Source: Minisyncoccota bacterium | Lineage (GTDB): Bacteria > Patescibacteriota > Minisyncoccia > UBA6257 > 2-01-FULL-56-20 | Direction: 5' to 3' | Length of the DNA: 64,000 nucleotides | NCBI GenBank assembly: GCA_041664245.1 | Contig: JBAYLC010000005.1 | Span: 8,695-72,694, forward strand | Shown: positions 1 to 42,331 of the stretch, one piece after another | How positions within the stretch are numbered: the stretch's first letter is position 1 | How the letters are laid out: every line of letters starts with the position of its first letter | The notes under the pieces: generated by a model | Database searches by the model: none | What the model was told of the DNA's origin: nothing | The model's input: only the letters and a program-made list of their open reading frames with translations | Made by a program: the position numbers and the translations under genes

Positions 1-192
1 GTTAAAACTGCCTACGCTATTTCCGCCGGCCGCGAACTGCGGGTTTTTGTTTTGCCGGAAAAAATCGACGACTTTAAAGCGCTAGAACTAGCCCGGGAAA
101 TTGCCAACCGGATCCAATCCGAGTTAAAATATCCCGGAGAGATTAAGGTTAATGTTATCCGAGAAATGCGCGCCGTCGAATACGCCAAATAA
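1..192 (+). CDS. rny: ribonuclease Y, C-terminal end (partial, runs off the left edge)
   Basis: In-frame from position 1 to TAA at 190-192. Tail ...[21 protein letters not shown] matches the conserved RNase Y C-terminus. Confidence 0.75.
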
Positions 193-202
193 AATATAAA
201 TC

Positions 203-1624
203 ATGTTCCAAAAAATTTCTAAATTTTTCTTGTACGCTTCGGTCTTTAGTATTGCCTTAGTCGCCACCTCAACTTTTTTTCCGTTTATAGGCGTTAAATA
301 TTATTTTTTTCGGGTAGTTATCGAACTCGCTTTGCTGTTTTATCTTCTCTACTGGGCTTTTGAAGCCAAAATCAACGAGGTAAAAAATCGGCTCCTAGAA
401 GTGTCTCGCCGACCGCTTTTCATTGCTGTTTCTATTTTCGTTCTCGCCTTTCTTCTGGCTTCAATTTTCGCCCTGAATTCTCACGCCGCTTTCTGGTCTA
501 ATTTTGAAAGAGGAGAAGGGGGATTTCAAATGATCCACTATTACCTTTTCTTTTTTCTCCTAATTATCCAACTCAAAGAATGGAAAGAATGGCGACTCTT
601 ATTTTGGTTGTCAGTAGGTGCCGCCTTCTTAATGGTTCTCTATGGATTCCTTGCTCAAGTAGGTGTTAATGGTTTAATCAGCCCATTGAGGGGAGATACT
701 AGCGGACTTAGCATCTCCGATAGAATTTTTAGTCCCCGTTTCCAGGGTTCCTTGGGCAATCCCGCCTATGTAGCGCCCTATTTACTCTTTACCTTATTTT
801 TTACATCTTATCTTTGGCTCGTAGATAGTAAAAAAACCAAATCCAGTCGTTTCTTAATTTACGGTGGGTTATCGCTTGTATTTCTGCTTTTTTTTATTTT
901 AAGCCAAACTCGCGGCGCGTTTCTTGGCTTAATCGGCGCTATTTTTGCTTTCTTTATCTGTTCTATTATCATCAGCTCCAAACGGCGAAAAATAAATTCC
1001 TACATTCTTCTTGGAATTATCTTAGTCGGCTCTATTTTTATTGTTTTTCGGCACAATCCTATTATTCAAAAACTTCCCGGAAGCCGATTATTGCAAATTG
1101 CTGACACGGGATATGAAACCGACTCTATACGAACTCGGCTTTGGACATGGGGATCCGCTTGGCGGGCATTTAAGGATCGTCCAATTTTTGGCTGGGGGCC
1201 GGAAAATTTCAGCGCCGCCTTCGATAAGCATTTTGATCCACGGCACTTTTCCCCTGAGAAAAATTCCGAAACTTGGTTTGACCGCGCTCATAGTATCGTT
1301 TTTGATTATTTATCAACCACTGGCCTGATCGGTTTTCTAGCGTATTTGTCTATATTTATAATTTTCTTCCGGAACCTTTTCCAAGGAAATAAATTTATTG
1401 AAAAAAATAATATTAACCCCCAGCAATTAGATGCAAATATGCCCCACTTCAAAAAAGCACCTTTATTGACAAGCTTAATGTTTGCAGTTATAATTGGCTA
1501 TCTCATTCAAGGCCTCGCCTTGTTCGATGTATTACCGATTTATCTTAATTTATTTATCGTTTTAGCTTTCGCTTCCTATATTTTTTCCTCAAATAAATTG
1601 AAAGCCAATGAACCCAACAACTAA
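203..1624 (+). CDS. O-antigen ligase/polymerase family (Wzy_C) polytopic membrane protein; candidate ligase, polymerase or PglL-like O-oligosaccharyltransferase
   Basis: About 10-12 hydrophobic helices. Wzy_C-type periplasmic loop (RTRLWTWGSAWRAF...GWGPENF...AHSIVFDYLSTTGLIGF) with the conserved His/Arg pattern of WaaL/PglL. Confidence 0.7.
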   Translation: MFQKISKFFLYASVFSIALVATSTFFPFIGVKYYFFRVVIELALLFYLLYWAFEAKINEVKNRLLEVSRRPLFIAVSIFVLAFLLASIFALNSHAAFWSNFERGEGGFQMIHYYLFFFLLIIQLKEWKEWRLLFWLSVGAAFLMVLYGFLAQVGVNGLISPLRGDTSGLSISDRIFSPRFQGSLGNPAYVAPYLLFTLFFTSYLWLVDSKKTKSSRFLIYGGLSLVFLLFFILSQTRGAFLGLIGAIFAFFICSIIISSKRRKINSYILLGIILVGSIFIVFRHNPIIQKLPGSRLLQIADTGYETDSIRTRLWTWGSAWRAFKDRPIFGWGPENFSAAFDKHFDPRHFSPEKNSETWFDRAHSIVFDYLSTTGLIGFLAYLSIFIIFFRNLFQGNKFIEKNNINPQQLDANMPHFKKAPLLTSLMFAVIIGYLIQGLALFDVLPIYLNLFIVLAFASYIFSSNKLKANEPNN

Positions 1625-2237
1625 AAAAATAATAGCGATTAGTATTAGTTGCGTCGTTATCTGGATGGCTTATTATGGTTCCTACTTACCATTCCAGAAA
1701 TCTCGTAATTTCATCGAGACAATGCGGAATCTGGGTGGTAGTAGTTCTCTATCTGATTTTAAATCTAGAATATCTGGCGTTCTTGATAGGCCTTCTCCAA
1801 TTGGCCAGGAGGAGCTTGTTCGCCAAACTGCCAATTTAATCGCCGGATTCTTCAATCAGCCATCCGCCACTCCTGACGTTATCGCTGATTTGATGGGGTA
1901 CCTTGAGAGCTACTATAAACCAATGATAGATCAAGGGAGTGGAATGAGTTTTGGTCAAGATCTTTATCTTTTGGGCTCGCTCAATGAATTGGCTTTCGTG
2001 AAAACTAATCAAAAAGCCTACTTTGACAAAGCCAAAAGCTATTATTCTCTTGCCCTAGTCGACGGTCCCAAACGGCCCCAAGCGCTTTATGGCATGTTCG
2101 ATATCTATCGTTTAGAAAAAAATGTTGCCGAAGTGAAAACCGTTTCCGATCAAATTCTTAGTCAGTGGCCCAATGATAGTAAGGTCAAAAATGCTCTAGC
2201 TGATTTTTTGAAGCAAATTACCCTAAAGAAAAAATAA
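1608..2237 (+). CDS. hypothetical N-terminally membrane-anchored protein
   Basis: ORF with one N-terminal TM helix. Start overlaps the upstream stop, suggesting translational coupling. No motif recognised. Confidence 0.4.
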
Positions 2238-2244
2238 AATTTTT

Positions 2245-3225
2245 ATGCTGAAGGCTCTAGTTACCGGTGTTACTGGACAAGACGGCTCGTATCTAGCCGA
2301 ATTATTGCTTAGTAAAGGTTACGAAGTCCACGGTGTTATCCGCCGCGCTTCAACCTTCAATACTGCCCGTATCGAGCATATCTATCAAGATCCCCACGAA
2401 GAAAAGCCCCATTTAATTCTTCATTACGGAGATCTTTCGGATGCCAACACGATCCGAAAGTTAATCTATAAAATTCAACCCGACGAAATTTATAATCTTG
2501 GCGCCCAATCCCACGTTCGTGTTTCTTTTGATATTCCTGAATACACTGCCAACATTACTGGTCTTGGCACACTCCGCATGCTTGAAGCTATTAAAGATTT
2601 CGAAGAACATATTGGGAAAAAGGTTAAATTTTACCAAGCTTCTAGCTCGGAAATGTTCGGTGCCACTCCACCGCCCCAAAATGAAGAAACTCCATTTTAT
2701 CCGCGAAGCCCATATGCAATTGCCAAAGTTTTTTCCTACAACACGGTAAGAAATTATCGGGAGGCATATGGCCTGTTTGCCACAAATGGAATTCTATTCA
2801 ATCACGAAAGTCCTCGGCGAGGCGAAACTTTTGTCACTAAAAAAATTACTCGCGGTTTAGCTAGTATAAAAAATGGATCAGCCAAAAAAATTTATCTTGG
2901 TAATCTAGAGGCGAAGCGCGATTGGGGTTACGCTCCTGAATATGTTGAGGCCATGTGGTTAATGATGCAACAGCCAAAACCAGATGACTATGTAATCGGC
3001 ACAGGCGAGAGTCATTCCGTTGAAGAATTTTTAAATGCCGCTTTTTCGTACTGCAACCTTAATTGGCGAGATTATGTAGAAATTGATCCTCGTTATTTTC
3101 GTCCCACAGAAGTTGATAATTTAATTGCCGATCCTAAAAAAGCCAAAGAAAAATTAGGTTGGGAAGCAAAGACTAAATTTAAAGATTTAGTCAAAATAAT
3201 GGTTGACGCTGATATAAAAATTTAA
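2245..3225 (+). CDS. gmd: GDP-mannose 4,6-dehydratase
   Basis: Signature [18 protein letters not shown], extended SDR fold, HYGDLSD and YAIAKV motifs. Confidence 0.95.
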
Positions 3226-3250
3226 CCCTCTGTAATTCAAGATCTAATAG

Positions 3251-3712
3251 ATGAAGCCGTATTCAAGAAAAATACCAACCAGCCTTTTCGAAAAAATTCA
3301 CAAATCTGTTCCGATAGTAACTGTGGATTTAGTTGTAACGAGTGGAAAAAATTTTCTCTTAGTTTTTCGTAAAAATAATCCAGAAGCCCAAACTTGGTAT
3401 TTTCCTGGGGGAAGGTTATTTAAAAACGAGCATTTATTAGATTCAGCAAGGAGAAAATTACGGGAAGAAACTGGATTGTCGGGCAAAAATTATAGAATAC
3501 TAGGAATTCACGAGCACTTTTATAATCCAAAAAAGAGTTATTTCAAGGGTTTTGGATCTCACGCTCTAGCTGTTATATTTAGAGTAGAAGTTAGTAAAAA
3601 AGAAAATATAAAATTAGATTCCCAAAGTCTCGATTTCAGATGGTTTAATAGTGTCGATAAAAATTTTAATCCGTATATTAAAAAATTTTTAAAAATAGCT
3701 AATCTTGGATAG
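3251..3712 (+). CDS. Nudix hydrolase (GDP-mannose mannosyl hydrolase-like, Gmm/WcaH-type)
   Basis: Nudix box GGRLFKNEHLLDSARRKLREETGL. Sits between gmd and fcl, as gmm does in colanic-acid and fucose loci. Confidence 0.7.
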   Translation: MKPYSRKIPTSLFEKIHKSVPIVTVDLVVTSGKNFLLVFRKNNPEAQTWYFPGGRLFKNEHLLDSARRKLREETGLSGKNYRILGIHEHFYNPKKSYFKGFGSHALAVIFRVEVSKKENIKLDSQSLDFRWFNSVDKNFNPYIKKFLKIANLG

Positions 3713-4691
3713 TCGAAATAAGGATTTTATTTTTAGTGATCTAATGGATAAAAATTCTAAAATTTACATAGCCGGGCACCGAGGCCTTGTTGGGTCGGCT
3801 ATTTTAAGGAAGCTTCAGGCCGGCAACTATTCAAACCTGGTCACTCGCGAACATCAAGAACTTGATCTGCTTGACGCAAGAATGACAGCAGATTTTTTTA
3901 AAAAAGAAAAACCAGAATACGTAATCGATGCTGCAGCAAAAGTAGGTGGTATTCACGCAAATAACACCTATCCCGCTGAATTTATTTACAACAACCTCTG
4001 TATCCAAAACAATATTATTCACAGCTCATATCTGGCGAATGTTAAACGTTTGCTTTTCATGGGGAGTGCCTGCATCTATCCGAAAATTTGTCCGCAACCA
4101 ATCAAAGAAGAATACCTATTGACTGGAGCGCTTGAACCGACAAATGAACCTTATGCAATTGCAAAAATCGCGGGGTATGAAATGTGTGATGCATATAATC
4201 GCCAATATGGGACCGATTATTTTTCGGTAATGCCCACCAATCTCTATGGTCCCAACGATCACTTTAACCTTGAGAACTCACACGTGATCCCAGCACTTAT
4301 GCGTAAATTCTATGAGGCAAAAACGAAAGGGAAAAATGAAGTGGTTCTTTGGGGGACTGGAAGTCCTACGCGTGACTTTATGCACTCCGACGATCTCGCC
4401 GATGCCTGTATCTTTCTCATGAATCAGCCATCGCTCTCTCATAGCCTCATTAACATCGGAACCGGCAAGGATATTTCGATTAGGGATCTTGCCGAAACCG
4501 TAAGTAAGGTGAGCGGATTTGAGGGAAAACTCACCTGGGATACCTCAAAGCCAGATGGAACGCCGCGAAGACGCGTTGACACCGAGCGGCTGAACGCTAT
4601 GGGATGGCATCACACCGTAATACTCGAAGACGGACTTAGTTCGACTTATCAGTGGTTTCTTGATAATGTCGCCAATAAAATCAAGGTATAA
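3705..4691 (+). CDS. fcl: GDP-L-fucose synthase (GDP-4-keto-6-deoxymannose 3,5-epimerase/4-reductase)
   Basis: IYIAGHRGLVGSAI N-terminus and YAIAKIAG catalytic motif. Typical Fcl/WcaG length. Confidence 0.9.
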   Translation: MDSRNKDFIFSDLMDKNSKIYIAGHRGLVGSAILRKLQAGNYSNLVTREHQELDLLDARMTADFFKKEKPEYVIDAAAKVGGIHANNTYPAEFIYNNLCIQNNIIHSSYLANVKRLLFMGSACIYPKICPQPIKEEYLLTGALEPTNEPYAIAKIAGYEMCDAYNRQYGTDYFSVMPTNLYGPNDHFNLENSHVIPALMRKFYEAKTKGKNEVVLWGTGSPTRDFMHSDDLADACIFLMNQPSLSHSLINIGTGKDISIRDLAETVSKVSGFEGKLTWDTSKPDGTPRRRVDTERLNAMGWHHTVILEDGLSSTYQWFLDNVANKIKV

Positions 4692-4737
4692 CGATAAAAA
4701 TCCTTGGGCGAGATAATAAAAAAGCAATAAAAATTTT

Positions 4738-5823
4738 ATGAATATTTCTGTAAAAGGAAAAAAAGTCGTAGTGTTTGATACTTTGGGGCCGCATTCCAAG
4801 CAGAATTTATGTTTTGATCCGAGCGTAGCAAAAGAGAAATGGTATCATCACTGTGCTTCTTATTTCTATGAAGAGTGCCAAAAAAAAGGTATTCAACTTA
4901 TTACCACCGATATTTATTTTGCCTTGTCAGAAAAACCAAAGGCTATCTGTATGCGAGAACGCATTGATGTGGACATGAGTACGTCACTCGCCCTACAAAA
5001 ATCCGGGGTGCGGCTTGCGGTTATTAGAAATTCTGAAAATCCGTTATATGCCTGCCGTTTTTTTTGGAACCTCGAAAGGCTTACGAGCTATTTTGATCAT
5101 TCAGTCGTGGTAAAAGGTGTAAAAGATTGGGTATCGCCTAAAAGCCATTTCCATCCGTGGTTTATCCCTCACGCATATTACAGCCAAATTCATGAAGTGC
5201 AATCAGACTTCCGCAAAAAAAAGTTTCTCGTTCTCATTCAACGGAATGCGAGGATACATTGGTTGCGCCGTTTATATGTGTCCGGGTTGAATTTTATAAA
5301 ACCTCTGCCAAATTTCGTAAACCAGGAAGGGTATCTTAATCGGCTAGAAGCCATAAAATATTTCTCTCAATATCCTGATTTTGATTTATATGGAATGTGG
5401 TGGGATAAACCAGTTCGCTATACACGCAAATATGACGAATCTATTCGAAAATCATATCGTGGGGCTGTTGAAGATAAATTCGCATTATTGAAGCAGTACA
5501 AGTTTTCTCTTATATTTGATAATGCTTATTTAGGGGGGATGGTACATGAGAAAATGACTGATTGTCTTTATGCCGGTTCCGTCCCGATTTATTGGGGGGC
5601 GCCAGACATTGCCGATATTTTCCCAGCTAATTGTTTTATTGATTTCAGGAAATTCGGTTGTGATTTTGCCCGCCTTAATGAATATCTACGCGCTATGGAC
5701 GAAAACACCTATAACGACTACATTAAAAATATCAATAAATTTATATCCTCGCCTGCAGCCTACAATCTAAGTCAAGAAAAATACACGGGCGATATGATAA
5801 AAATTTTTGAATCGTATTTTTAA
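4738..5823 (+). CDS. GT10 alpha-1,3-fucosyltransferase
   Basis: YKFSLIFDNAYLGGMVHEKMTDCLYAGSVPIYWGAP matches the FucT motifs YKFxLxFENS...YxTEK...PIYWG of Helicobacter FutA/B. Immediately downstream of the GDP-fucose genes. Confidence 0.8.
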   Translation: MNISVKGKKVVVFDTLGPHSKQNLCFDPSVAKEKWYHHCASYFYEECQKKGIQLITTDIYFALSEKPKAICMRERIDVDMSTSLALQKSGVRLAVIRNSENPLYACRFFWNLERLTSYFDHSVVVKGVKDWVSPKSHFHPWFIPHAYYSQIHEVQSDFRKKKFLVLIQRNARIHWLRRLYVSGLNFIKPLPNFVNQEGYLNRLEAIKYFSQYPDFDLYGMWWDKPVRYTRKYDESIRKSYRGAVEDKFALLKQYKFSLIFDNAYLGGMVHEKMTDCLYAGSVPIYWGAPDIADIFPANCFIDFRKFGCDFARLNEYLRAMDENTYNDYIKNINKFISSPAAYNLSQEKYTGDMIKIFESYF

Positions 5824-5829
5824 AGACAT

Positions 5830-6774
5830 ATGTCATCTAAAAAAATTCTTATAACCGGCGGGGCGGGCTATATTGGATCGATATTGGTTCCGGAGTTATT
5901 ACGAGCGGGGCACGAGGTAACCGTTATTGATAATTTTACCTATAACCAGTCCTCGCTTTTGGATGTTTGTAATTTTCAAACCCTTACCCTGATTCGCGGT
6001 GACGCTCGTGATGAAAAAATAATCTCCCAGCACATTAAAGAAAAGGATTTTATTATTCCGCTTGCTTGCGTTGTTGGTGCTCCTGCTTGTAATAGAGACC
6101 CAGTTGCCGCTCGCACCATTAATCTTGAAGCAGTAGAACTTATTCTAAAACTTCGCGAAAAATGTCAAAAAATTATTTTTCCCAATACCAATAGCGGCTA
6201 TGGTCGGATGGCCGAAGGTGTCGCATTTTGTGATGAAACAAGTACTCTCGATCCAATCTCGCTTTACGGCAAACTAAAAGTGCAAGCGGAAAAAGAACTG
6301 CTCGAAGCGGGAAACGCGATCACTTTACGACTCGCTACCGTCTTCGGGATTAGTCCTCGTATGCGCCTCGATCTTCTTGTGAATGATTTTGTTTATCGCG
6401 CCGTTAATGATGGGGCCGTTGTATTATTCGAGCCTCATTTCAAACGTAATTATATTCACATCAGAGATGTGGCGGGTGCCTTTATGCATGCGATGGAAAA
6501 TTTTGAAAAAATGAAAAACGAACCCTATAATGTCGGTCTTTCAGACGCTAACTTAAGTAAGATTGAACTTTGTGAGGAAATAAAAAAGCAAATTCCCAAC
6601 TTTGTTTTCATAGAATCAAAAATAGGAGAAGATCCTGATAAACGGAATTATATTGTAAGTAATACTAAAATTGAAAATATGGGTTTCAAGCCCCGAATAT
6701 CGCTTACCGAGGGAATTTCTGAGCTGATCAAGGGTTATCAAATTATTAAAAGAAATAACTTCTCTAATCTCTAG
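5830..6774 (+). CDS. NAD-dependent sugar epimerase/dehydratase (extended SDR)
   Basis: ILITGGAGYIGS Rossmann motif and extended-SDR length. Confidence 0.8.
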   Translation: MSSKKILITGGAGYIGSILVPELLRAGHEVTVIDNFTYNQSSLLDVCNFQTLTLIRGDARDEKIISQHIKEKDFIIPLACVVGAPACNRDPVAARTINLEAVELILKLREKCQKIIFPNTNSGYGRMAEGVAFCDETSTLDPISLYGKLKVQAEKELLEAGNAITLRLATVFGISPRMRLDLLVNDFVYRAVNDGAVVLFEPHFKRNYIHIRDVAGAFMHAMENFEKMKNEPYNVGLSDANLSKIELCEEIKKQIPNFVFIESKIGEDPDKRNYIVSNTKIENMGFKPRISLTEGISELIKGYQIIKRNNFSNL

Positions 6775-6786
6775 TTTCTATTTTCC

Positions 6787-6815
6787 TTGACAACAATAGC
6801 TCGGAGAATTATATT
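6787..6815 (+). promoter_or_regulatory. sigma70-type promoter (TTGACA-17 bp-TATATT) upstream of the radical SAM gene
   Basis: Read directly: TTGACA at 6787-6792, 17-nt spacer, TATATT at 6810-6815. GAAGGAG RBS before ATG 6881. Confidence 0.6.
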
Positions 6816-6880
6816 GCTCCTAGGTCTTTGATACCTTAAATTCGTCAATTCAAATAGTATCTCATAGAAGGAGTTGTAGA

Positions 6881-8392
6881 ATGAGTCGTTTAGACGCAGT
6901 TTTTGTTATCCCTGGCAACCTCACTCAGGTTTACCAAGTTTTTGCTAAAGAACACGCCATCGAACCGCCTATTTTCGCCCTCTGGATAGCGTCTCATCTA
7001 GAGAGCAAAGGGTATAGTTTCGAATTTATTGATGCCGTGCCGTCCAATCTTTTTCCAGAAGAAGTTGCTGCTGAAGTCGTTCATCTCAACCCAAGACTTG
7101 TTATTGTACCTGTCTATGGTTCTCAACCTTCTGCTTCAACTCAAAACATGCCAGCCGCGCGAAGAACGTGCCAAGCAATAAAAGATCTCAAGCCAGATCA
7201 AAAAATCCTCGTCACTGGCACCCATCCCGCGGCATTACCAGAGCGAACTCTTAGGGAAGAACCAGTGGATTTTGTTTGCGACGGTGAAGGTCCCACAACT
7301 CTTATCGAAATTCTCGAGGTCTTGAGAAATGGGGATGATGTTTCCAATGTGGGAAGTCTTTGGTACTGGGAAAGTGGGAAACCCAAATACACTCATCCGG
7401 CGCGGAATGTTACCGAACTTGAGTTTGATCCGGACATCTGGCGATTTCTTCCGATGAGTCGCTACATTGCCCACGATTGGCATACTGGTTATCGAGATTT
7501 TGCGTCTCGCAAGCCCTACGCTTCTATCCTAACTACGCTTGGTTGTCCTTTCCGATGTTCATTCTGCTGCATTCAAACTCCGTTTAGAGCGGGTGAGGCA
7601 GCTATAGGGCGTAATCCAAAATCGAACTCTTACCGTTTCTGGTCGCCGCAGGTCATCATCAAAACCATAGAAGTGCTCGTTAGAAAGTATGGTATGGAGC
7701 ATATCAAGATTCACGATGAGTTATTCGTCTTGAATCAAAGGCATGTGAGTGCCATTTGCGCTTTAATCAAAGAACGCTTCAACGATGATTTGAATATTTG
7801 GGCTTACTCTCGTGCCGACACAGCCCAGCCTAAGTCTTTAGACATCCTAAGGGCGGCCGGGATTCGTTGGCTAGCTGTTGGTATTGAGCGCGACGGTAAA
7901 AACAAATCTTTTTCTGGCGAGGATATACTCCGAGTTAGAGAAATGATTAAGGATGCTGGTATTAAATTAGCGGCGAACTACATTTTTGGACTGCCCGGTG
8001 ATACCAAGGATAGCATGCAGGCTACACTAGATATGGCTCTGGCAATAAATTCGCCATTCGCTAATTTCTATTGTGCTATGGCTTACCCCGGTTCCGAACT
8101 CTATGAGGAAGCCGTAAGAAGAAATTTACCATTGCCAGATAGTCCTGGTGGTCCCGGTTGGATTGGTTACTCTCAGCACGCCTACGAAGCCACGCCTCTT
8201 CCGACCGATTCTCTTTCCGCCGCAGACATTCTTCGTTTTAGGGATGAAGCCTGGAGGAGATACTACACCAACCCAAAGTTTCTTTCCATGCTTCAGGATT
8301 GGTATGGTGAAAACGGCGAAGAAGCAGAGAGAAACATAAAAAAAATGACCTCTCTATCTCCCCTCCGCCGAGCGCTTTTCGAAAAAACATGA
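6881..8392 (+). CDS. B12-binding-domain radical SAM enzyme
   Basis: N-terminal cobalamin-binding Rossmann-like domain. Cys cluster CPFRCSFCC (CxxxCxxC plus an extra C), then a TIM-barrel-length region. Class-B radical SAM architecture. Confidence 0.8.
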   Translation: MSRLDAVFVIPGNLTQVYQVFAKEHAIEPPIFALWIASHLESKGYSFEFIDAVPSNLFPEEVAAEVVHLNPRLVIVPVYGSQPSASTQNMPAARRTCQAIKDLKPDQKILVTGTHPAALPERTLREEPVDFVCDGEGPTTLIEILEVLRNGDDVSNVGSLWYWESGKPKYTHPARNVTELEFDPDIWRFLPMSRYIAHDWHTGYRDFASRKPYASILTTLGCPFRCSFCCIQTPFRAGEAAIGRNPKSNSYRFWSPQVIIKTIEVLVRKYGMEHIKIHDELFVLNQRHVSAICALIKERFNDDLNIWAYSRADTAQPKSLDILRAAGIRWLAVGIERDGKNKSFSGEDILRVREMIKDAGIKLAANYIFGLPGDTKDSMQATLDMALAINSPFANFYCAMAYPGSELYEEAVRRNLPLPDSPGGPGWIGYSQHAYEATPLPTDSLSAADILRFRDEAWRRYYTNPKFLSMLQDWYGENGEEAERNIKKMTSLSPLRRALFEKT

Positions 8393-8415
8393 TTGACGAC
8401 AGTTTAAGTTATTCT

Positions 8416-8955
8416 CTAACGAGGGCTTTTTTCGGAGTCCTCGTTTTTTATTTTATGAATTATTTTTGTAGTTGATATTTTTTCAAATTCAGGCGGGCAG
8501 TACCTATCAAGGATAACAAGTTCGACCCCTGTCTTTTGAGCTATTATTTTTCGATAAGGAATATCTCCTGCGTCCTCGTTGATCACGTAAATATCAGGCT
8601 TGAGTTTGTTCAAGGCCACTTCTATAGACCAAAGGACATGATTATCTCCCGGTATTATCTCATCCATAAAACAATAATCTACTGGCCTTAAGGAATCCAC
8701 CATCTTTAAACGAACATGCTGATTTAAAATAGGGCGGTGGTTACCTTTATTACTTCTAATTGCAGCATCACACCCCACCATAACCACTAGTATGTCTCCG
8801 CGCATTTTGCAATCTTCAAAAAAAAGCACATGCCCGGCATGAGTGACATCAAAACTACCAGAGCAAAAAACAATTTTTTGATCCCGGTGTCTGTTTCTTA
8901 TAATCGCTACATCTTCTAATTTCGTGACCGCCATTAGTGAAAGAATATAACACAA
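8416..8955 (-). CDS. cytidylyltransferase-like nucleotidyltransferase (TagD / HldC family)
   Basis: SGSFDVTHAGHVLFF (HxGH) and C-terminal ISTTKI motif. The only minus-strand gene in the first 17 kb. Confidence 0.7.
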   Translation of the reverse strand: MCYILSLMAVTKLEDVAIIRNRHRDQKIVFCSGSFDVTHAGHVLFFEDCKMRGDILVVMVGCDAAIRSNKGNHRPILNQHVRLKMVDSLRPVDYCFMDEIIPGDNHVLWSIEVALNKLKPDIYVINEDAGDIPYRKIIAQKTGVELVILDRYCPPEFEKISTTKIIHKIKNEDSEKSPR

Positions 8956-9189
8956 ATCAATCCATTTACAATACAGAGTGATTCAGTCGTTGTCCTCATC
9001 ACGCTCCTTTTTTGCCCAACGAATATCTTCGCACTATGGACGAGAACATCCGCAACGGGTATATTCGAGATATTGAGTTCATAATTTCCCCAATAGTATA
9101 TGCAATAAACTAGAATAGATAGGTGGGTGATATAATAATTATTTTGAATTATAAAAATTAAAGAAAATAATCTAAACAAGCTTAAAAGC

Positions 9190-9993
9190 ATGAATAAAGA
9201 ACTTAGAAATAGAGTGGCGTTAATCACGGGCTCAAGTCGCGGTATCGGCAAGGAGATCGCCGTAACACTCGCGAAAGCCGGTGCCGATGTTGTAATCTGC
9301 GGGTCAAGTAAGGTAAACGTAGAAAAAGCAGAAAAAGAACTAGGGTCGTCTGGGACAAAAACATACTCTTACGTACTTGATGCCACAAAAAGCGCGGAGG
9401 TCAAAAATCTGTTTTCAAATATAATTCAGAAAATCGGCCAGCTAGACATTCTCGTGAATAACGTCGGCGGTATAAAGGAGTCGGTAAAGTTTTTGGATGT
9501 TACGGATGAGCAGTGGCAAGCAGCATGGAATTTAAATTTCATGACGATGGTTAATTTCTCACGCGAGGCGATTCCCTGGCTAAAAAAATCCCTTTATGGA
9601 AGAATTATTAATATCTCAAGTGTTCCAGGGAAACAGCCGGGAATGTTTAATCCTCATTATGGCGCCCCGAAGGCTGCCATGAATTATCTAAATAAATACC
9701 TCGCCAACTCTCTTGCACCCGACGGAATTCTTGTTAATGCAATTTTGCCACACACAGTCTTGGGTGGATTATGGGACGAGCATGTGGCAGATAGAGCTAA
9801 AAAACTAAATGTTTCCGCCGAAGAGGCAGGAGAAATTATGAAAAAAGAGATTAAAGAAAGAATTCCATTAGGGAAAATGGCAATGCTGGAAGATGTTGCC
9901 GAATTGGTTGCTTTTTTAGCGTCCGACAAAGCAAAATTCATTACCGGCACAAGTATTGCCGTTGATGGCGGAACTATTAAATCAATTTTCTAA
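9190..9993 (+). CDS. SDR-family oxidoreductase (paralog of 17037-17846)
   Basis: ALITGSSRGIGKEIA and classical SDR length. Matching blocks with 17037-17846 (LITG..GIGK, NVGG, NISS..GKQPG.FNPHYGA, EDVAELVAFLASD.AKFITGT) indicate about 55-60% identity by eye; not computed. Confidence 0.85.
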   Translation: MNKELRNRVALITGSSRGIGKEIAVTLAKAGADVVICGSSKVNVEKAEKELGSSGTKTYSYVLDATKSAEVKNLFSNIIQKIGQLDILVNNVGGIKESVKFLDVTDEQWQAAWNLNFMTMVNFSREAIPWLKKSLYGRIINISSVPGKQPGMFNPHYGAPKAAMNYLNKYLANSLAPDGILVNAILPHTVLGGLWDEHVADRAKKLNVSAEEAGEIMKKEIKERIPLGKMAMLEDVAELVAFLASDKAKFITGTSIAVDGGTIKSIF

Positions 9994-11257: not shown

Positions 11258-12436
11258 ATGTTAGAAAAAAAAATAAAATATTTTCTCGCCGAAGACACAA
11301 TTGATCATAAGGACATAGATGCGCTTATCGAGTGGCTTAAGACTTATCCGCGCCTTACAAAAGATAAACTTACTATTGAGTTCGAAGGAAAATGGAATAA
11401 TTGGTTGGGAAGGAAATATTCCGTATTTAATAATTCCGGTTCTTCTGCAAACTTACTCATGTATTATGCGCTTCTTCTGTCCGGAAGATTAAAAAATAAG
11501 AAAATCATCGTGCCTAGCGTAGGGTGGGTTACAACTATCGCTCCCGCAATCCAATTCGGATTTGAGCCGATTATGTGTGAGGCAGATAAAAAAACATTTG
11601 GACTCGACTTAGAGCATTTAGAAAAACTTTTAATTGAGCACCGGCCGAGTACGGTTATTTTTGTGCAAGTTTTAGGTGTCCCGAATAAAATGGAAGAACT
11701 ATTAGCGCTTAAAGAAAAATACGGATTCACATTGCTTGAAGATGCTTGTGCGGCAATGGGATCAACTTATCAGGGCAAAAACGTAGGCACATTCGGAGAC
11801 ATGGCAAGTTTCTCGTTCTACTTTGGCCATCAGATCTCAACAATCGAGGGTGGCATGGTCTCTACCGATGATAAAGAGCTAAACGATCTACTCTTAATGC
11901 TTCGGAGTCATGGTTGGGATAAGGATTTAGACAATGAGACAAGGGCTGGTTTGCGCTCAAAATACAACATAGATGATTTTCATTCCCCATTTGTTTTTTA
12001 CGAACCCGGATTTAATCTGCGATCAACTGATCTCAATGCCTTTCTAGGAATTCGCCAAGTGGACAAAATGGAGTGGTTAGTGAGGCGCAGAAATGAAAAC
12101 CACCTACTCTACAAAAAAATTCTTAGAGACAGATTTTATTTTCAGGAATATGATTCAGATTCCACAATTTGTAGTATCCATTTTGGTATGCTTGCAAAAG
12201 ATACCGAGGAGAGAAGGAAAATAGTAAGCGCCTTAGAGCAAGAAGGTGTAGAAACGCGTATTTTTTCGGCTGGTAATCTTGGACTCCATCCATTTTGGGC
12301 AAACCGGTATGGCGTGGCTTCTTTCCCGATGGCCGACCGCATCCACCACACCGGACTTTTTCTACCAAACAATCCTTCTCTAAAAATTGAAGATATAGAA
12401 TTTATATCGAAAACAGTTTTGCAAAGCGTTCCATAA
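11258..12436 (+). CDS. DegT/DnrJ/EryC1 family PLP/PMP enzyme; sugar 3-dehydratase type (ColD/E1-like) rather than aminotransferase
   Basis: DegT fold. At the position of the Schiff-base Lys (SF..K..GEGG) it has SFYFGHQISTIEGGMV. His replacing Lys is the hallmark of GDP-4-keto-6-deoxymannose 3-dehydratase ColD and CDP-hexulose 3-dehydrase E1. Confidence 0.65.
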   Translation: MLEKKIKYFLAEDTIDHKDIDALIEWLKTYPRLTKDKLTIEFEGKWNNWLGRKYSVFNNSGSSANLLMYYALLLSGRLKNKKIIVPSVGWVTTIAPAIQFGFEPIMCEADKKTFGLDLEHLEKLLIEHRPSTVIFVQVLGVPNKMEELLALKEKYGFTLLEDACAAMGSTYQGKNVGTFGDMASFSFYFGHQISTIEGGMVSTDDKELNDLLLMLRSHGWDKDLDNETRAGLRSKYNIDDFHSPFVFYEPGFNLRSTDLNAFLGIRQVDKMEWLVRRRNENHLLYKKILRDRFYFQEYDSDSTICSIHFGMLAKDTEERRKIVSALEQEGVETRIFSAGNLGLHPFWANRYGVASFPMADRIHHTGLFLPNNPSLKIEDIEFISKTVLQSVP

Positions 12437-31582: not shown

Positions 31583-31587
31583 GAAAT

Positions 31588-37757: not shown

Positions 37758-39245
37758 CTATATTTTAATTTTTAATATTGCGAGAGAATCTTTAAGTAAG
37801 GGTTCTTTAGTAAAATAAAGAACTCCGAAATACACAAAAATAGACGCCCCGATATTCATCAAAAGGTTAGTTTTTAAAATTAATAATACAAAAGTTACAA
37901 TCGCCATTACCAAAGTAGCTATTACTATATTTTTTAAAACCGGCACAACCCTGAAATAATTTATTCTCTTCATTTTATTCCAAAGATAAGCATTGCTCGC
38001 AGAGATAGCAATCAATGTCGCTATGGCCGATCCAGTAATTCCAAATCTAGGAATTAAGATTAAATCCAATAAAACATTTAAAAATCCTCCTATTATCGCA
38101 TTTATAATCAAACTCTTTTGATTGTTATAAGAAAATATTGCGCTACTTAAAATAACCGCCGGGAAATTGATCATCAAGGTGAGAATGAGAATTTGGAATG
38201 ATAGAGTGGCTCCAGAATATGCGCTGCCGAAAAGGAAACTTATAATATTTCCCCCAAGAATAACCCCCCCGATGGATATAGGAATTGCAACAAGCATGAC
38301 TGTCCCCAGTGTGTTTTCCATAACCCTGCGCATTTTTGTATTATCCTTTCCGGCTATTCTAGAAAAAAGAGGTAAGACGCTTACCGAAATAACGCTCGGA
38401 ATAATGTAAAAAATTTGAATTATCCTGTCTGCCGCTGAGTAAAGCCCCACATCTTTCGTGGTCAACAATCCTCCGATTAATAAAATGTCAGTATTTATCA
38501 TCAAAATTCCTAACACACCCGAGATAGCAAATGGCCACGCTGTAGATAAGATTGGCTTAACCAACTTAAAACAAAAATCTGAAAAAAGCTGGCGAAGTTT
38601 ATCTCTAAGAATAAAAGCTGTTGCCATCACGCCTAGTCCAGTGCCAAGCGCGTACGCGAATGCGAATGATTTTACGCTCGGCCTTAACGAAAGAAAAATG
38701 AAGCCAAAAACAACTATTGCAACATTTGTTAATAAAAATAAACCAGCTTCCTTTTCCATTTTTTCATAGGCTCTATTCAGGGCAAAGCCAAATTCCCGGA
38801 AGCTATCAAAAATTACTATAAAAACTACAATCGGCAATATTTCTTTTACTCCTTGAACACTAATAAAATGAGGGACGATAAATATTATTAAAAAAGCTCC
38901 AAGTATCAAAAATACAGTTTTTATAGTGAAAGAAGTAGAAAGTATACGTGATCTCTCGGCTGGGTCTTCGGTTTTTGTGGATTCTCTTATTAGAATAGAA
39001 TTAATTCCGAAATCAATAAAAATTGTGAAAAAAGCAGTTATTGTAACTGCGTAAGAAAAAATTCCCCACTTCTCCACTCCTAAAACCCTTGCGGCGTAGA
39101 TTATTATTATTGCCTTAATAAGTCTCCCGCCAACATTACTAACTGACAACCAAAAACTATTTTTTACTATGGTTTGCCGGGCGTTTTGATTTGTGAATAA
39201 AAATCCCTTTATTTTTTTTATCATTTGTTGTATAGTGACTTCCAA
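37758..39245 (-). CDS. Wzx-type oligosaccharide flippase (MOP superfamily)
   Basis: 495 aa with about 12-14 TM helices and the polysaccharide-biosynthesis-protein N-terminal pattern. Confidence 0.8.
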   Translation of the reverse strand: MEVTIQQMIKKIKGFLFTNQNARQTIVKNSFWLSVSNVGGRLIKAIIIIYAARVLGVEKWGIFSYAVTITAFFTIFIDFGINSILIRESTKTEDPAERSRILSTSFTIKTVFLILGAFLIIFIVPHFISVQGVKEILPIVVFIVIFDSFREFGFALNRAYEKMEKEAGLFLLTNVAIVVFGFIFLSLRPSVKSFAFAYALGTGLGVMATAFILRDKLRQLFSDFCFKLVKPILSTAWPFAISGVLGILMINTDILLIGGLLTTKDVGLYSAADRIIQIFYIIPSVISVSVLPLFSRIAGKDNTKMRRVMENTLGTVMLVAIPISIGGVILGGNIISFLFGSAYSGATLSFQILILTLMINFPAVILSSAIFSYNNQKSLIINAIIGGFLNVLLDLILIPRFGITGSAIATLIAISASNAYLWNKMKRINYFRVVPVLKNIVIATLVMAIVTFVLLILKTNLLMNIGASIFVYFGVLYFTKEPLLKDSLAILKIKI

Positions 39246-40996: not shown

Positions 40997-42331
40997 TTAT
41001 TTTCCCGCAAAAGTCAGAATAGTTTTCAGGGTTTTTAGAACTATCAATAAATCCAGAACGAACGATCGGTTTTTCACGTAATAAATATCATAAGCTAGTC
41101 TTTCTATTGCTTCGTCCACCGAGCTGCCATATTTGTCCTGCACTTGCGCCCAGCCGGTTAATCCTGGTGCGATCACGGTTCTAATTTGATAATGAGGTAT
41201 TTTTTCCTTTAATAATTTATAAAAATCAACGAAATCCGCTCTTGGCCCGACGAAAGATAATTCTCCTCTTAGTATATTTATCACCTGCGGCAATTCATCC
41301 GCCCGCACTTTCCGAAGAATTTTTCCGATTCTAAAAACTCTTCCGTCATTTTCTACAACTCCGAACTCGGTGCCAACTTTTTTAAATTCATCGCTTCCCA
41401 CGCTCATCGTTCTAAATTTAAAAAGGGTAAAAATTTCTTCTTTTCTGCCCACTCTCTTATTGAGAAAAAAAGCCGGCCCTTTTGAGCTCGCCTTTATAAG
41501 TAGGATAATAAGCGGCCAAATCCAAATCGTAATTATTAAAACGATAAATGCCAATATTGAATCCTCAATTCTCTTAGCTATAATGTACAATCCGTTCCGT
41601 GGCCTTATCTTATCCAAAAACCAACTTTCCTCAAGCTCATCGATGGAGACTTTTCCCATAATCGCTTCATAAAATTCAGAAAAAGATGAGATCTCAACCC
41701 CCCTTAAAAGCTGTTTATATATTCTCTCTGCCATATCGCGATCGCTCTTTAAACTTGCTGGAATAACTAAAACATCATATCCGCCGTTACCAATTAAACT
41801 TTTTATTACTTCCAAGTCTAAATCATGAACCCAATGTAAAACCTTATATCCAAGCTGCGGATTATCAGTAAGGCAACTCACTAATTCTTCCGCATCTCTG
41901 CCTTTTCCAATAATACAAACCCCCATAAGCGGACTTGATTGTAGATAATGTTTGCACAAAAATTCCCTGAAAGAAAAAATAAGCACCCCGAAAATAATAA
42001 TCAAAAGAACTAAAATGGTTTTTGGCGCAATATCGAAATAGGGGAGTAAATAAAAAAACAAAATCGCCAAAACTGAGAATAAAATTATTCCAGTTAAAAA
42101 AAGTTTTACTCGCTGCATTCGTCGTCGGAATTTTCTAAGGTCATACAGGCCCACTATATAAAAAACAATCAGACCGAATAGAAGCAGAAAACTAAAAGGC
42201 CAAAGATGAAGCTTAAAAAGTTGCCAATTGAAACTCTCTGTATTCCTTATCAGGAGGGATAGGAAAAGGGCAAAGTAAAAAGAAAGCACGTCGAATATAA
42301 AGAATGAAAGTTTTTTTGTAGTCGTTTTCAT
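40997..42331 (-). CDS. undecaprenyl-phosphate sugar phosphotransferase (WbaP/PssY-type initiating enzyme)
   Basis: N-terminal TM bundle. C-terminal Bac_transf block RPLIIL...KRVGRKEEIFTLFKFRTM...DELPQVINILRGELSFVGPR. Confidence 0.9.
   Translation of the reverse strand: MKTTTKKLSFFIFDVLSFYFALFLSLLIRNTESFNWQLFKLHLWPFSFLLLFGLIVFYIVGLYDLRKFRRRMQRVKLFLTGIILFSVLAILFFYLLPYFDIAPKTILVLLIIIFGVLIFSFREFLCKHYLQSSPLMGVCIIGKGRDAEELVSCLTDNPQLGYKVLHWVHDLDLEVIKSLIGNGGYDVLVIPASLKSDRDMAERIYKQLLRGVEISSFSEFYEAIMGKVSIDELEESWFLDKIRPRNGLYIIAKRIEDSILAFIVLIITIWIWPLIILLIKASSKGPAFFLNKRVGRKEEIFTLFKFRTMSVGSDEFKKVGTEFGVVENDGRVFRIGKILRKVRADELPQVINILRGELSFVGPRADFVDFYKLLKEKIPHYQIRTVIAPGLTGWAQVQDKYGSSVDEAIERLAYDIYYVKNRSFVLDLLIVLKTLKTILTFAGK

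What the first reader, a model, noticed from the sequence alone, without database searches (positions are those of the whole stretch)
2245..5823. Complete GDP-L-fucose module wired to a Helicobacter-type GT10 alpha-1,3-fucosyltransferase
The order gmd, Nudix (gmm-like), fcl, GT10 FucT forms a self-contained fucosylation cassette. Bacterial GT10 enzymes are rare and are best known for Lewis-antigen mimicry in Helicobacter. The motifs YKFSLIFDN...HEK...PIYWG are clearly conserved here.

Finding one in an environmental or uncultivated lineage implies Lewis-x-like (Fuc-alpha1,3-GlcNAc) or related epitopes on this organism's surface glycan.
Basis: partly seen in the sequence, partly recalled or inferred. 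Interest (0 to 1): 0.55.

Follow-up and report, generated by a model that had tools for sequence, protein, structure and literature searches.

The report
Fucose-adding gene set in a CPR bacterium
A tiny uncultivated bacterium (Candidatus Paceibacterota) carries the two genes that make activated fucose next to a family-10 fucosyltransferase inside a large surface-sugar gene cluster; this is an ordinary arrangement, already annotated as such in GenBank, and it does not show that the cell displays human-like Lewis antigens.

Summary
Window 2245-5823 encodes, on one strand, Gmd, a Nudix protein, Fcl and a 361-aa protein with the GT10 donor motif.

The GT10 call holds:
- Pfam PF00852 scores above its threshold.
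- A family profile hits only GT10 fucosyltransferase structures in the PDB.
- A confident model (pLDDT 93.9) is GT-B.
- Candidate counterparts of the FUT9/HpFucT catalytic set are conserved (E100, N170, R202, N262, E271, K272).

gmd-fcl-GT10 adjacency recurs in related Paceibacterota contigs, and all four genes are under strong purifying selection.

The interpretation overreaches in four ways:
- The enzyme is not "Helicobacter-type". Only about 95 C-terminal residues align, there is no FucT_N domain, and there are no heptad repeats or amphipathic tail.
- Bacterial GT10 relatives are not rare (at least 597 species; 22,019 clusters at 50% identity).
- The cassette is not self-contained. It opens a ~42-kb Wzx/Wzy-type glycan locus.
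- GT10 acceptors vary, so Lewis-x cannot be inferred.

The Nudix protein is a GDP-mannose mannosyl hydrolase homolog that lacks the catalytic His.

GenBank already names this exact protein "glycosyltransferase family 10". Verdict: a new, uncharacterised member of a known kind, of low to moderate interest.

One side observation deserves follow-up. Many of the closest relatives lack the Glu-Lys dyad that this copy keeps.

The parts
203..1624 (+). Wzy_C-domain membrane protein (473 aa). It could be an O-antigen ligase, a polymerase or an O-oligosaccharyltransferase. It is the first gene of the locus.
   Evidence: PF04932 E 1.4e-20. It lies upstream of gmd in L001, L006, L007, L011, L012, L040 and L047. 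No PDB sequence match.
1608..2237 (+). Conserved 209-aa protein of unknown function with a hydrophobic N-terminus. It is always paired with the Wzy_C gene.
   Evidence: No Pfam hit. Homologs at 40-49% identity sit between Wzy_C and gmd in L006, L007, L011, L012, L040 and L047, and directly upstream of gmd in L009.
2245..3225 (+). gmd, GDP-mannose 4,6-dehydratase
   Evidence: TIGR01472 534 bits, above the cut-off of 415. GenBank MFA6354710.1. dN/dS 0.016 against L001.
3251..3712 (+). Nudix hydrolase, a homolog of GDP-mannose mannosyl hydrolase (Gmm/WcaH) that lacks its catalytic His
   Evidence: PF00293. The best PDB hit is 1rya, E 4e-14, but His124 aligns to Ser126 and Tyr103 to Ala105. NF011963 scores 60.6 bits, below its cut-off of 146. 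The gene is absent from L007 and L011.
3744..4691 (+). fcl, GDP-L-fucose synthase. The mechanical ORF starts at TTG 3705; the ATG at 3744 fits the homologs.
   Evidence: 1bws E 6.5e-119, aligned over the full length with GS(A)CIYP, YAIAK and NSHVIP conserved. NF047922 481.8 bits. dN/dS 0.020.
4738..5823 (+). GT10-family glycosyltransferase (361 aa), a predicted GDP-L-fucose-dependent inverting fucosyltransferase
   Evidence: PF00852 40.8 bits against a gathering score of 23.9. The family profile hits only GT10 structures, at E 3e-26 to 7e-17. AF2 pLDDT 93.9, GT-B fold. hhalign to a FucT_N-bearing GT10 gives probability 99.9. GenBank MFA6354713.1 'glycosyltransferase family 10'. dN/dS 0.062.
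5830..6774 (+). SDR-family NDP-sugar epimerase/dehydratase (314 aa). It starts 6 nt after the GT10 stop. Its substrate is unknown.
   Evidence: PF01370 E 5e-30, no equivalog match. Homologs at 77-82% identity are present in L006, L007 and L010-L012.
6881..8392 (+). B12-binding radical SAM enzyme (503 aa), the last gene of the probable transcription unit
   Evidence: PF02310 plus PF04055. A B12-rSAM gene also lies next to the GT10 gene in the Harrisonbacteria loci L002-L005.
8418..8445 (+). Terminator-like hairpin (12 pairs plus a T-run) between the convergent rSAM and cytidylyltransferase genes
   Evidence: It is by far the strongest of the five terminator-like sites in 1-9300: 12 pairs, against 5 pairs for each of the other four.
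37758..39245 (-). Wzx/MurJ-type flippase of the same glycan locus
   Evidence: PF01943, PF13440 and PF03023.
40997..42331 (-). Initiating phosphoglycosyltransferase (Bac_transf), which marks the far end of the locus
   Evidence: PF02397 E 1.8e-53.

Best explanation
Window 2245-5823 is the GDP-fucose module of a Wzx/Wzy-type surface-glycan locus (about 203-42331) in a Candidatus Paceibacterota (CPR/Patescibacteria) MAG.

Proposed pathway:
1. Gmd converts GDP-mannose to GDP-4-keto-6-deoxymannose.
2. Fcl epimerises and reduces that product to GDP-beta-L-fucose.
3. The soluble, cytoplasmic 361-aa GT-B enzyme of family GT10 transfers fucose with inversion, giving an alpha-L-fucoside. The acceptor is a sugar of an oligosaccharide built on a polyprenyl-diphosphate carrier.
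4. The Bac_transf enzyme starts that oligosaccharide, and the GT2/GT4 enzymes of the locus extend it.
5. Wzx flips the unit. The Wzy_C protein then polymerises it or ligates it to its final acceptor.

In the transferase, Glu100 is inferred to be the base, Arg202 and Lys272 to hold the diphosphate, and Asn170, Asn262 and Glu271 to stabilise the transition state.

The Nudix protein is an optional accessory that probably trims GDP-sugar pools.

Shown: gene identities, fold, family membership, conserved residues, synteny and purifying selection. Inferred: the donor, the stereochemical outcome, the lipid-linked acceptor and the catalytic roles. Unknown: the linkage position and the acceptor sugar.
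For: Gene identities:
- Gmd scores above its equivalog cut-off.
- Fcl is about 60% identical to E. coli GMER, with the catalytic motifs conserved.

GT10 membership:
- PF00852 scores above its gathering threshold.
- phmmer's best PDB hit is HpFucT, E 4.9e-11.
- The family profile finds only GT10 structures: 2nzw 3.3e-26, 5zoi 5.3e-26, 7yro 5.5e-21, 9s6a 1.2e-19, 8d0o 7e-17.
- hhalign to the FucT_N-bearing P0073 gives probability 99.9 over 259 columns.

Catalytic residues:
- E100 is conserved in 49 of 50 sequences, R202 in 48, N170 in 45 and N262 in 46. E271 and K272 are present.
- The N262-K272 spacing of 10 residues equals N246-K256 in FUT9 and N240-K250 in HpFucT (PMC12717137).
- R202-G219 spacing equals that of P0073 R137-G154. 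R137 aligns to HpFucT R195.

Linkage to fucose synthesis:
- The order gmd-(nudix)-fcl-GT10 is conserved in L001, L006, L007 and L011. A Gmd homolog lies within the flanks of 19 of 89 GT10-like loci.

Selection and transcription:
- dN/dS is 0.016-0.065 for the four module genes and up to 0.11 across the eight genes compared.
- The genes are tightly spaced and co-directional, and the only strong terminator lies at 8418-8445.

Locus machinery:
- Wzy_C, Wzx, Bac_transf and multiple GTs are present.
Against: - No enzyme of this N-terminal domain type has been characterised, as far as I could find.
- The window's motif deviates from the canonical one: Asp261 replaces Glu, Met268 replaces the Tyr246 equivalent, and His270 replaces Thr.
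- hhalign did not place Glu100 on the catalytic Glu of P0073. That equivalence rests on invariance and on secondary-structure order.
- Relatives at 49-51% identity sit in loci with no gmd-fcl within 8-10 kb, next to heptose-pathway genes.
- Close relatives lacking the Glu-Lys dyad are nevertheless conserved. The canonical mechanism may therefore not be strictly required in this clade.
Confidence: 0.75

Rival explanations
1. One reading: a Helicobacter-type alpha-1,3-fucosyltransferase acting on GlcNAc of LacNAc-like units, so the cell surface carries Lewis-x-like mimicry epitopes.
For: HpFucT is the best PDB sequence hit and the top Foldseek hit. Most characterised GT10 enzymes make Fuc-alpha1,3/4-GlcNAc (PMC12717137, PMC4202792).
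Against: - Similarity to HpFucT is confined to the ~95-aa donor-binding block.
- The acceptor (N-terminal) domain has no FucT_N match.
- There are no heptad repeats or C-terminal anchor.
- No galactosyltransferase/LacNAc-type machinery was identified. The locus instead encodes heptose, C-methyl and amino-sugar pathways.
- The closest contigs carrying names are groundwater MAGs, and nothing links this organism to an animal host whose antigens it would mimic.
Confidence: 0.12
2. The GT10-like enzyme transfers a different GDP-activated 6-deoxy sugar, such as a 6-deoxyheptose, colitose, D-rhamnose or 6-deoxytalose. Another GT uses the GDP-fucose, or GDP-fucose is only an intermediate.
For: - Relatives at 49-51% identity lie beside GHMP-kinase/SIS/HAD/NTP-transferase (GDP-heptose-type) genes and a GDP_Man_Dehyd-like SDR, without gmd-fcl nearby.
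- Distant relatives sit next to Gmd plus an Fcl-like protein of only 35-39% identity plus DegT, a colitose-like set.
- The window also has heptose-pathway genes, and an uncharacterised SDR lies 6 nt downstream of the GT10 gene.
Against: - A true Fcl lies immediately upstream in the window and in the four closest loci held with their upstream flank: L001, L006, L007 and L011.
- Every characterised GT10 mentioned in the papers read uses GDP-fucose (PMC12717137, PMC11949838).
- The window's DegT is PseC/RfbH-like, not ColD/Per-like.
Confidence: 0.08
3. It is a protein O-fucosyltransferase, like the animal GT10 members FUT10/FUT11 (POFUT3/4), that puts fucose directly on Ser/Thr of a surface protein.
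For: GT10 includes protein O-fucosyltransferases (PMC11949838). The phylum falls in the kingdom Bacillati, so an LPS O-antigen is not expected (inference).
Against: The gene is embedded in a locus with a phosphoglycosyltransferase, a flippase and a Wzy_C protein, which is typical of lipid-linked assembly. The protein has no signal peptide or TM segment and would act in the cytoplasm.
Confidence: 0.04
4. It is a decaying or non-catalytic GT10 homolog.
For: The window's motif has substitutions (D261, M268, H270), and many closest relatives have lost the Glu-Lys dyad.
Against: dN/dS is 0.062. The ORF is intact and full-length, the model confidence is high, and E100, R202, N262, E271 and K272 are retained.
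Confidence: 0.03

Closest known systems
Helicobacter pylori alpha-1,3-fucosyltransferase FucT/FutA (CAZy GT10; PDB 2NZW/2NZX/2NZY, 5ZOI)
   Same: - GT-B fold.
- The donor-binding block YKF-x-L-x-F-(E/D)-N...(T/H)EK...PIYWG aligns over ~95 residues.
- Conserved candidate counterparts exist for Glu95, Asn189, Arg195, Asn240, Glu249 and Lys250.
   Different: - No FucT_N (PF18025) N-terminal domain.
- No DDLR(V/I)NY heptad repeats and no two C-terminal amphipathic helices (PMC4202792).
- The Tyr246 equivalent is Met and the Glu239 equivalent is Asp.
- Two insertions are present, at about residues 101-118 and 173-190.
- Overall identity is about 15-17%.
- The organism is a Paceibacterota MAG, in the kingdom Bacillati, not a gastric pathogen.
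Eukaryotic GT10 fucosyltransferases (human FUT9, PDB 8D0O; Arabidopsis FUT11, 9S6A; mango FucT13, 7YRO)
   Same: - The profile hits them at E 7e-17 to 5.5e-21.
- The catalytic set corresponds: FUT9 Glu137/Asn195/Arg202/Asn246/Lys256 against E100/N170/R202/N262/K272 (PMC12717137).
   Different: The eukaryotic enzymes are type II membrane proteins of the Golgi with N-glycan or LacNAc acceptors. The window protein is soluble, cytoplasmic and part of a bacterial glycan operon.
E. coli colanic-acid / O-antigen gmd-fcl(wcaG)-gmm(wcaH) GDP-fucose genes
   Same: The same three protein families are clustered. Fcl is about 60% identical to E. coli GMER. The Nudix protein's best structural relative is E. 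coli GDP-mannose mannosyl hydrolase.
   Different: The order here is gmd-nudix-fcl. The Nudix protein lacks the His124 and Tyr103 equivalents and keeps a near-canonical Nudix box (REET). It is dispensable in sister loci. The colanic-acid gene order is cited from my own knowledge.
Uncharacterised Patescibacteria 'glycosyltransferase family 10' proteins in GenBank (Liptonbacteria, Harrisonbacteria, Paceibacterota MAGs)
   Same: They are direct orthologs at 51-94% identity, of the same length, and many have the same synteny. The window's own protein is MFA6354713.1.
   Different: Twenty-two relatives read (Q/H/Y)Y in place of the Glu-Lys dyad, and those aligned or identity-scored here are at 60-74% identity. 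The window's copy keeps the dyad.

Membership tests
CAZy GT10 / Pfam PF00852 fucosyltransferases | Significant match to the GT10 C-terminal (donor) domain model | tested here: met
   PF00852 scores 40.8 bits against a gathering score of 23.9, over residues 202-330. The family profile hits only GT10 PDB chains, at E 3e-26 to 7e-17.
CAZy GT10 / Pfam PF00852 fucosyltransferases | GT-B fold (two Rossmann-like domains) | tested here: met
   [not shown]
CAZy GT10 / Pfam PF00852 fucosyltransferases | Donor motif Asn...Glu-Lys (HpFucT N240/E249/K250; FUT9 N246/K256) and the diphosphate-binding Arg | tested here: met
   N262, E271 and K272 are aligned directly to HpFucT. R202 is conserved in 48 of 50 sequences and has the same spacing to the D-x-x-G element as P0073 R137, which aligns to HpFucT R195. 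The motif has substitutions: D261, M268 and H270.
CAZy GT10 / Pfam PF00852 fucosyltransferases | Catalytic-base Glu in the N-terminal domain (HpFucT Glu95, FUT9 Glu137, AtFUT11 Glu158) | tested here: inconclusive
   Glu100 is conserved in 49 of 50 sequences. It follows strand 92-97 in an S-E-N-P context resembling HpFucT TG-E95-NESP. However, hhalign aligned it to P0073 Asp55 rather than Glu66. No coordinate superposition was possible.
CAZy GT10 / Pfam PF00852 fucosyltransferases | Uses GDP-beta-L-fucose and forms an alpha-1,3/4 linkage (or O-fucose) | not testable with these tools
   Only context is available: a true Gmd and Fcl lie immediately upstream, conserved in L001, L006, L007 and L011.
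Helicobacter-type FucT (FutA/FutB architecture) | FucT_N N-terminal domain (PF18025) | tested here: not met
   The N-terminal 219 residues gave no PF18025 or PF17039 hit even at E <= 10. The control P0073 gave PF18025 at E 1.8e-28.
Helicobacter-type FucT (FutA/FutB architecture) | C-terminal heptad repeats (DDLR(V/I)NY x2-10) followed by two amphipathic membrane-anchoring helices | tested here: not met
   There is no tandem repeat in 4738-5823. The protein ends ...DMIKIFESYF at residue 361, where the catalytic domain ends. P0073 extends 52 residues further. The defining feature is taken from PMC4202792.
GDP-mannose 4,6-dehydratase (Gmd) | Score above the TIGR01472 equivalog cut-off | tested here: met
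   534.2 bits against a cut-off of 415.
GDP-L-fucose synthase (Fcl/WcaG/GMER) | Equivalog-level similarity and the catalytic Ser/Cys, Tyr-x3-Lys and His residues | tested here: met
   NF047922 scores 481.8 bits, slightly below its cut-off of 500. The 1bws alignment has E 6.5e-119 over residues 5-308, with GS-x-CIYP, YAIAK and NSHVIP conserved.
GDP-mannose mannosyl hydrolase (Gmm/WcaH/NudD) | Score above the NF011963 cut-off; catalytic His124 and Tyr103; degenerate Nudix box | tested here: not met
   It scores 60.6 bits against a cut-off of 146. His124 aligns to Ser126 and Tyr103 to Ala105, and the Nudix box keeps Glu-Glu (REET). It is a homolog (best PDB hit E 4e-14) but not a confirmed Gmm.

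The most novel reading that the evidence does not exclude
This enzyme may represent a large, uncharacterised GT10 subfamily with its own N-terminal acceptor domain, which fucosylates a non-LacNAc acceptor such as a heptose or a branched or amino sugar of this locus. The glycan may then be attached by the Wzy_C protein to a surface protein or lipid of an ultra-small bacterium that, being in the kingdom Bacillati, is presumably monoderm.

Within the Paceibacterota clade, the canonical Glu-Lys catalytic dyad has been lost repeatedly, or regained in this lineage. That would imply an alternative way of doing GT10 chemistry, or non-catalytic paralogs.
Probability: 0.2. Interest if true: 0.5.

Novelty: new member of a known kind. 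Interest (0 to 1): 0.25.

Why it matters
If the prediction holds, members of Paceibacterota (CPR) make fucosylated surface glycans. That would be a useful handle for studying how these host-dependent, mostly uncultivated cells present themselves: lectin capture or staining, and glyco-typing of MAGs. It would also be a source of new fucosyltransferases.

It does not bear on Lewis-antigen mimicry, and it changes no current view of GT10 enzymes. The gene is already labelled GT10 by automated annotation.

The dyad-lacking sister proteins are the only element that might teach something new about the family's mechanism.

Tried and rejected

2. Pfam scan of the N-terminal half at E <= 10, to find a FucT_N or Glyco_tran_10_N domain. 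Nothing was found.

3. hhalign of the family against P0073 to fix the catalytic-base register. Homology was clear, but the N-terminal register was unreliable because of a ~10-residue insertion after Glu100.

4. NCBIfam scan of the GT10 protein. No model matched.

5. Colitose or perosamine idea for the window. Rejected because Fcl is a true GMER ortholog and DegT is PseC/RfbH-like.

6. PDB sequence search with the Wzy_C protein, to distinguish ligase, polymerase and OTase. No hit.

7. Promoter scan. The number of hits did not exceed the shuffled expectation.

8. Literature searches for Patescibacteria/CPR with fucosyltransferase, fucose or O-antigen. Nothing relevant was found.

9. Tandem-repeat search for heptads. 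None found.


Full report
**Observation**

The region 2245-5823 contains four co-directional ORFs exactly as described.
- ORF 2245-3225 is a GDP-mannose 4,6-dehydratase. TIGR01472 scores 534 bits against a cut-off of 415, and PF16363 has E 1.9e-141.
- ORF 3251-3712 is a Nudix protein.
- ORF 3705-4691 is a GDP-L-fucose synthase, and its likely true start is the ATG at 3744. NF047922 scores 481.8 bits, and the best PDB match is E. coli GMER 1bws at E 6.5e-119. That alignment is about 60% identical over the full length, with the GS-x-CIYP, YAIAK and NSHVIP motifs conserved.
- ORF 4738-5823 (361 aa) matches Pfam Glyco_transf_10 at 40.8 bits, above the gathering score of 23.9. It contains the quoted strings at residues 254-262 (YKFSLIFDN), 270-272 (HEK) and 283-287 (PIYWG).

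**Is the fourth protein really GT10?**

- Single-sequence search of the PDB gives H. pylori FucT as the best hit (E 4.9e-11), but only over residues 235-329.
- A profile built from 50 homologs (alignment A1) finds only GT10 fucosyltransferases among 177,635 PDB sequences at significant E-values: HpFucT 3.3e-26 and 5.3e-26, mango FucT13 5.5e-21, Arabidopsis FUT11 1.2e-19 and human FUT9 7e-17.
- An AlphaFold2 model is confident (pLDDT 93.9, pTM 0.90) and is a GT-B fold.
- hhalign of the family against P0073, a protein that carries both the Helicobacter FucT_N domain and PF00852, gives probability 99.9 and E 1e-32 over 259 columns spanning both domains.

It is not met.

**Catalytic residues**

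The literature gives the following:
- For FUT9: Glu137 as base, Arg202 and Lys256 on the diphosphate, and Asn195 and Asn246 (PMC12717137).
- For HpFucT: Glu95 as base and Glu249 as oxocarbenium stabiliser, with mutants of either virtually inactive (PMC4202792).

In the window protein:
- Asn262, Glu271 and Lys272 align directly with HpFucT Asn240, Glu249 and Lys250, with the same 10-residue Asn-Lys spacing.
- Arg202 is conserved in 48 of 50 sequences. It lies 17 residues before the conserved D-x-x-G element, exactly as P0073 Arg137 does, and Arg137 aligns to HpFucT Arg195.
- Asn170 follows a beta-strand as HpFucT Asn189 does.
- Glu100 is conserved in 49 of 50 sequences. It sits three residues after strand 92-97 in S-E-N-P, reminiscent of HpFucT TG-E95-NESP. 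hhalign did not place it on that Glu, probably because of a ~10-residue insertion that follows. I therefore treat Glu100 as the inferred, not proven, base.
- The window's motif is mildly atypical: Asp261 for Glu, Met268 for the Tyr246 equivalent and His270 for Thr.

**What is not Helicobacter-like**

- The N-terminal (acceptor) half gives no Pfam match at all, even at E <= 10, whereas P0073 gives FucT_N at 1.8e-28.
- There is no tandem repeat in the gene.
- The protein stops where the catalytic domain ends (...IFESYF). It therefore lacks the heptad repeats and the two amphipathic C-terminal helices that characterise the H. pylori enzymes (PMC4202792).

**Source and prior annotation**

The exact Gmd, GT10 and GroEL sequences of the window are in GenBank. 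They are MFA6354710.1, MFA6354713.1 and MFA6354758.1, from a Candidatus Paceibacterota MAG on a 182,822-bp contig. MFA6354713.1 is already named 'glycosyltransferase family 10'. Paceibacterota corresponds to the phylum Minisyncoccota in the kingdom Bacillati. The lineage claim is therefore right, and the family assignment is not new.

**Rarity**

They come from Patescibacteria, Chloroflexota, Planctomycetota, Acidobacteriota, Cyanobacteria, Bacteroidota, Pseudomonadota, Verrucomicrobiota, Actinomycetota, Spirochaetes and even a Woesearchaeote.
- An exhaustive profile search of 1.84 billion cluster representatives found 22,019 proteins at E <= 1e-3, 11,490 at E <= 1e-10 and 2,219 at E <= 1e-30. 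Most of the best hits are full-length matches of about 350 aa.

GT10-like enzymes with this architecture are common in environmental bacteria.

**Wiring to GDP-fucose**

- The order RNase Y - Wzy_C - 210-aa protein - gmd - (nudix) - fcl - GT10 is found in L001 (94% identity), L006 (70%), L007 and L011 (67%). The Nudix gene is missing in L007 and L011.
- Across 89 fetched GT10-like loci, 19 have a Gmd homolog of at least 47% identity within the 8-10 kb flanks. That is far above what a usually single-copy gene would give by chance.
- Against L001, dN/dS is 0.016 for gmd, 0.065 for the Nudix gene, 0.020 for fcl and 0.062 for GT10.
- Gene spacing is tight: -17 to 46 nt through the GT10 gene, then 6 nt to the next gene. 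The only strong terminator-like hairpin in 1-9300 is at 8418-8445, after the B12-radical-SAM gene. This suggests one transcription unit from Wzy_C to the rSAM gene.

Caveats:
- Relatives at 49-51% identity (Harrisonbacteria and others) sit between GT2 and Glyco_trans_1_2 genes, near heptose-pathway genes, with no gmd-fcl within 8-10 kb.
- Some distant relatives sit next to Gmd plus a divergent Fcl-like protein plus DegT, a colitose-like set.

The wider family may therefore not be uniformly fucose-specific.

**Not self-contained**

The module opens a glycan locus running to about 42.3 kb. It contains:
- Wzy_C (203-1624);
- an SDR, a B12-rSAM enzyme and a cytidylyltransferase;
- further SDRs and an aldo-keto reductase;
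- a PseC/RfbH-like DegT;
- a split E1-like TPP enzyme;
- two HddA-like kinases and NTP-transferases, two SIS (GmhA-like) proteins, GmhB and a transaldolase;
- a TylC3-type C-methyltransferase and an FkbM methyltransferase;
- a UDP-Glc-dehydrogenase-family enzyme;
- two GT4, four GT2 and a Glyco_trans_1_2 protein;
- a Wzx flippase (37758-39245, minus strand);
- a Bac_transf phosphoglycosyltransferase (40997-42331, minus strand).

This is the standard machinery for assembling a lipid-linked repeat unit. The GT10 enzyme is one of about eight transferases.

**The Nudix protein**

Its best structural relative is E. coli GDP-mannose mannosyl hydrolase (1rya, E 4e-14; the next hits are at about 1e-5). 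However, catalytic His124 aligns with Ser126 and Tyr103 with Ala105. The Nudix box retains the Glu-Glu pair that Gmm has lost. It also scores far below the Gmm model cut-off. It is a Gmm-family homolog of uncertain chemistry and is dispensable in sister loci.

**Mechanism proposed**

GDP-mannose is converted by Gmd and then Fcl to GDP-beta-L-fucose. The GT10 enzyme transfers fucose with inversion to an alpha-linkage on a growing polyprenyl-diphosphate-linked oligosaccharide at the cytoplasmic face. Wzx flips the unit, and the Wzy_C protein polymerises or ligates it.

GT10 acceptors range from LacNAc and N-glycan core GlcNAc to protein Ser/Thr (PMC12717137, PMC12929593, PMC11949838), and the acceptor domain here is of an uncharacterised type. 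Neither the 1,3 linkage nor a GlcNAc acceptor, and hence Lewis-x, can be inferred.

**Side observation**

- Of 209 family members that could be anchored on the PIYWG element, 181 have Glu-Lys at the HpFucT 249/250 position.
- Twenty-two have (Q/H/Y)-Tyr, with a loop one residue shorter. Those that were aligned or identity-scored are Paceibacterota-type relatives at 60-74% identity to the window protein.
- These variants remain directly downstream of gmd-fcl (L007, L011), and the variant motif is itself conserved.
- In an NJ tree with the motif columns masked, the window group (Glu-Lys kept) is monophyletic in 84 of 100 bootstraps.
- The dyad-lacking set is never monophyletic to its exclusion (0 of 100), while the whole clade is recovered in 100 of 100.

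This suggests repeated loss, a regain, or an unresolved tree. It is the only part of this region that might be mechanistically new, and it concerns relatives rather than the window's own gene.

**Verdict**

This is a new, uncharacterised member of a known kind that is already annotated as such. Interest is low to moderate.

Noticed in passing
Relatives P0002, P0003, P0005-P0013, P0015, P0017, P0018, P0020-P0022, P0024-P0026, P0028, P0029; loci L007 8001-9086 and L011 4332-5414; window equivalent residues 271-272 (nt 5548-5553): Twenty-two relatives replace the GT10 Glu-Lys dyad (HpFucT E249/K250) with (Q/H/Y)-Tyr and have a loop one residue shorter; those aligned or identity-scored are at 60-74% identity. 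They are still conserved and still sit directly after gmd-fcl. The window's copy keeps the dyad. In bootstrapped NJ trees the dyad-lacking set is never a single clade that excludes the dyad-bearing ones (0 of 100).
   Followed up: partly
window 203-2237: A Wzy_C-domain protein overlaps a 209-aa protein that has no family match and a hydrophobic N-terminus. The pair recurs just upstream of gmd in seven other Patescibacteria loci: L001, L006, L007, L011, L012, L040 and L047. In a lineage placed in the kingdom Bacillati, the Wzy_C protein could be a polymerase or a protein O-oligosaccharyltransferase rather than an LPS ligase. It has no PDB sequence match.
   Followed up: partly
window 3251-3712: The Nudix protein is the closest relative of E. 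coli GDP-mannose mannosyl hydrolase, but Ser replaces the catalytic His124 and Ala replaces Tyr103. It also keeps the canonical Glu-Glu of the Nudix box. It may hydrolyse the pyrophosphate bond rather than the glycosidic bond.
   Followed up: partly
window 6881-8392; L002 11142-12980: A B12-binding radical SAM enzyme lies close to the GT10 gene in this locus and also in the otherwise rearranged Harrisonbacteria loci. It may be a sugar C-methylase or another radical sugar-modifying enzyme.
   Followed up: no
window 11258-13842 and 17868-19145 (minus strand): The locus contains a PseC/RfbH-like DegT aminotransferase, a split pyruvate-dehydrogenase-E1-like TPP enzyme (202 + 193 aa) and a TylC3-type NDP-hexose C-methyltransferase. 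This set suggests synthesis of a branched-chain and/or amino deoxysugar. The DegT plus split-E1 pair recurs in L006 (78-85% identity).
   Followed up: no
window 13852-15568, 19192-19800, 26656-27642, 30854-33535: There are two HddA-like GHMP kinases, two NTP-transferases, two SIS (GmhA-like) proteins, GmhB and a transaldolase. Together they look like a GDP-D-glycero-D-manno-heptose pathway, partly duplicated. All score well below the equivalog cut-offs.
   Followed up: partly
L061, L066, L070, L077, L080, L086 (GT10-like loci from other phyla): In these loci Gmd is followed by an Fcl-like protein of only 35-49% identity and a DegT-family protein. This resembles a GDP-colitose (ColD/ColC-like) set, so some members of the wider GT10-like family may transfer a sugar other than fucose.
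   Followed up: no
window 42463-43164 and 44297-45214: A DsbA-like thioredoxin-fold protein and a thioredoxin-reductase-like flavoprotein lie just beyond the glycan locus. GroEL is at 46999-48660 and tRNA-Ser(GGA) at 57502-57588.
   Followed up: no
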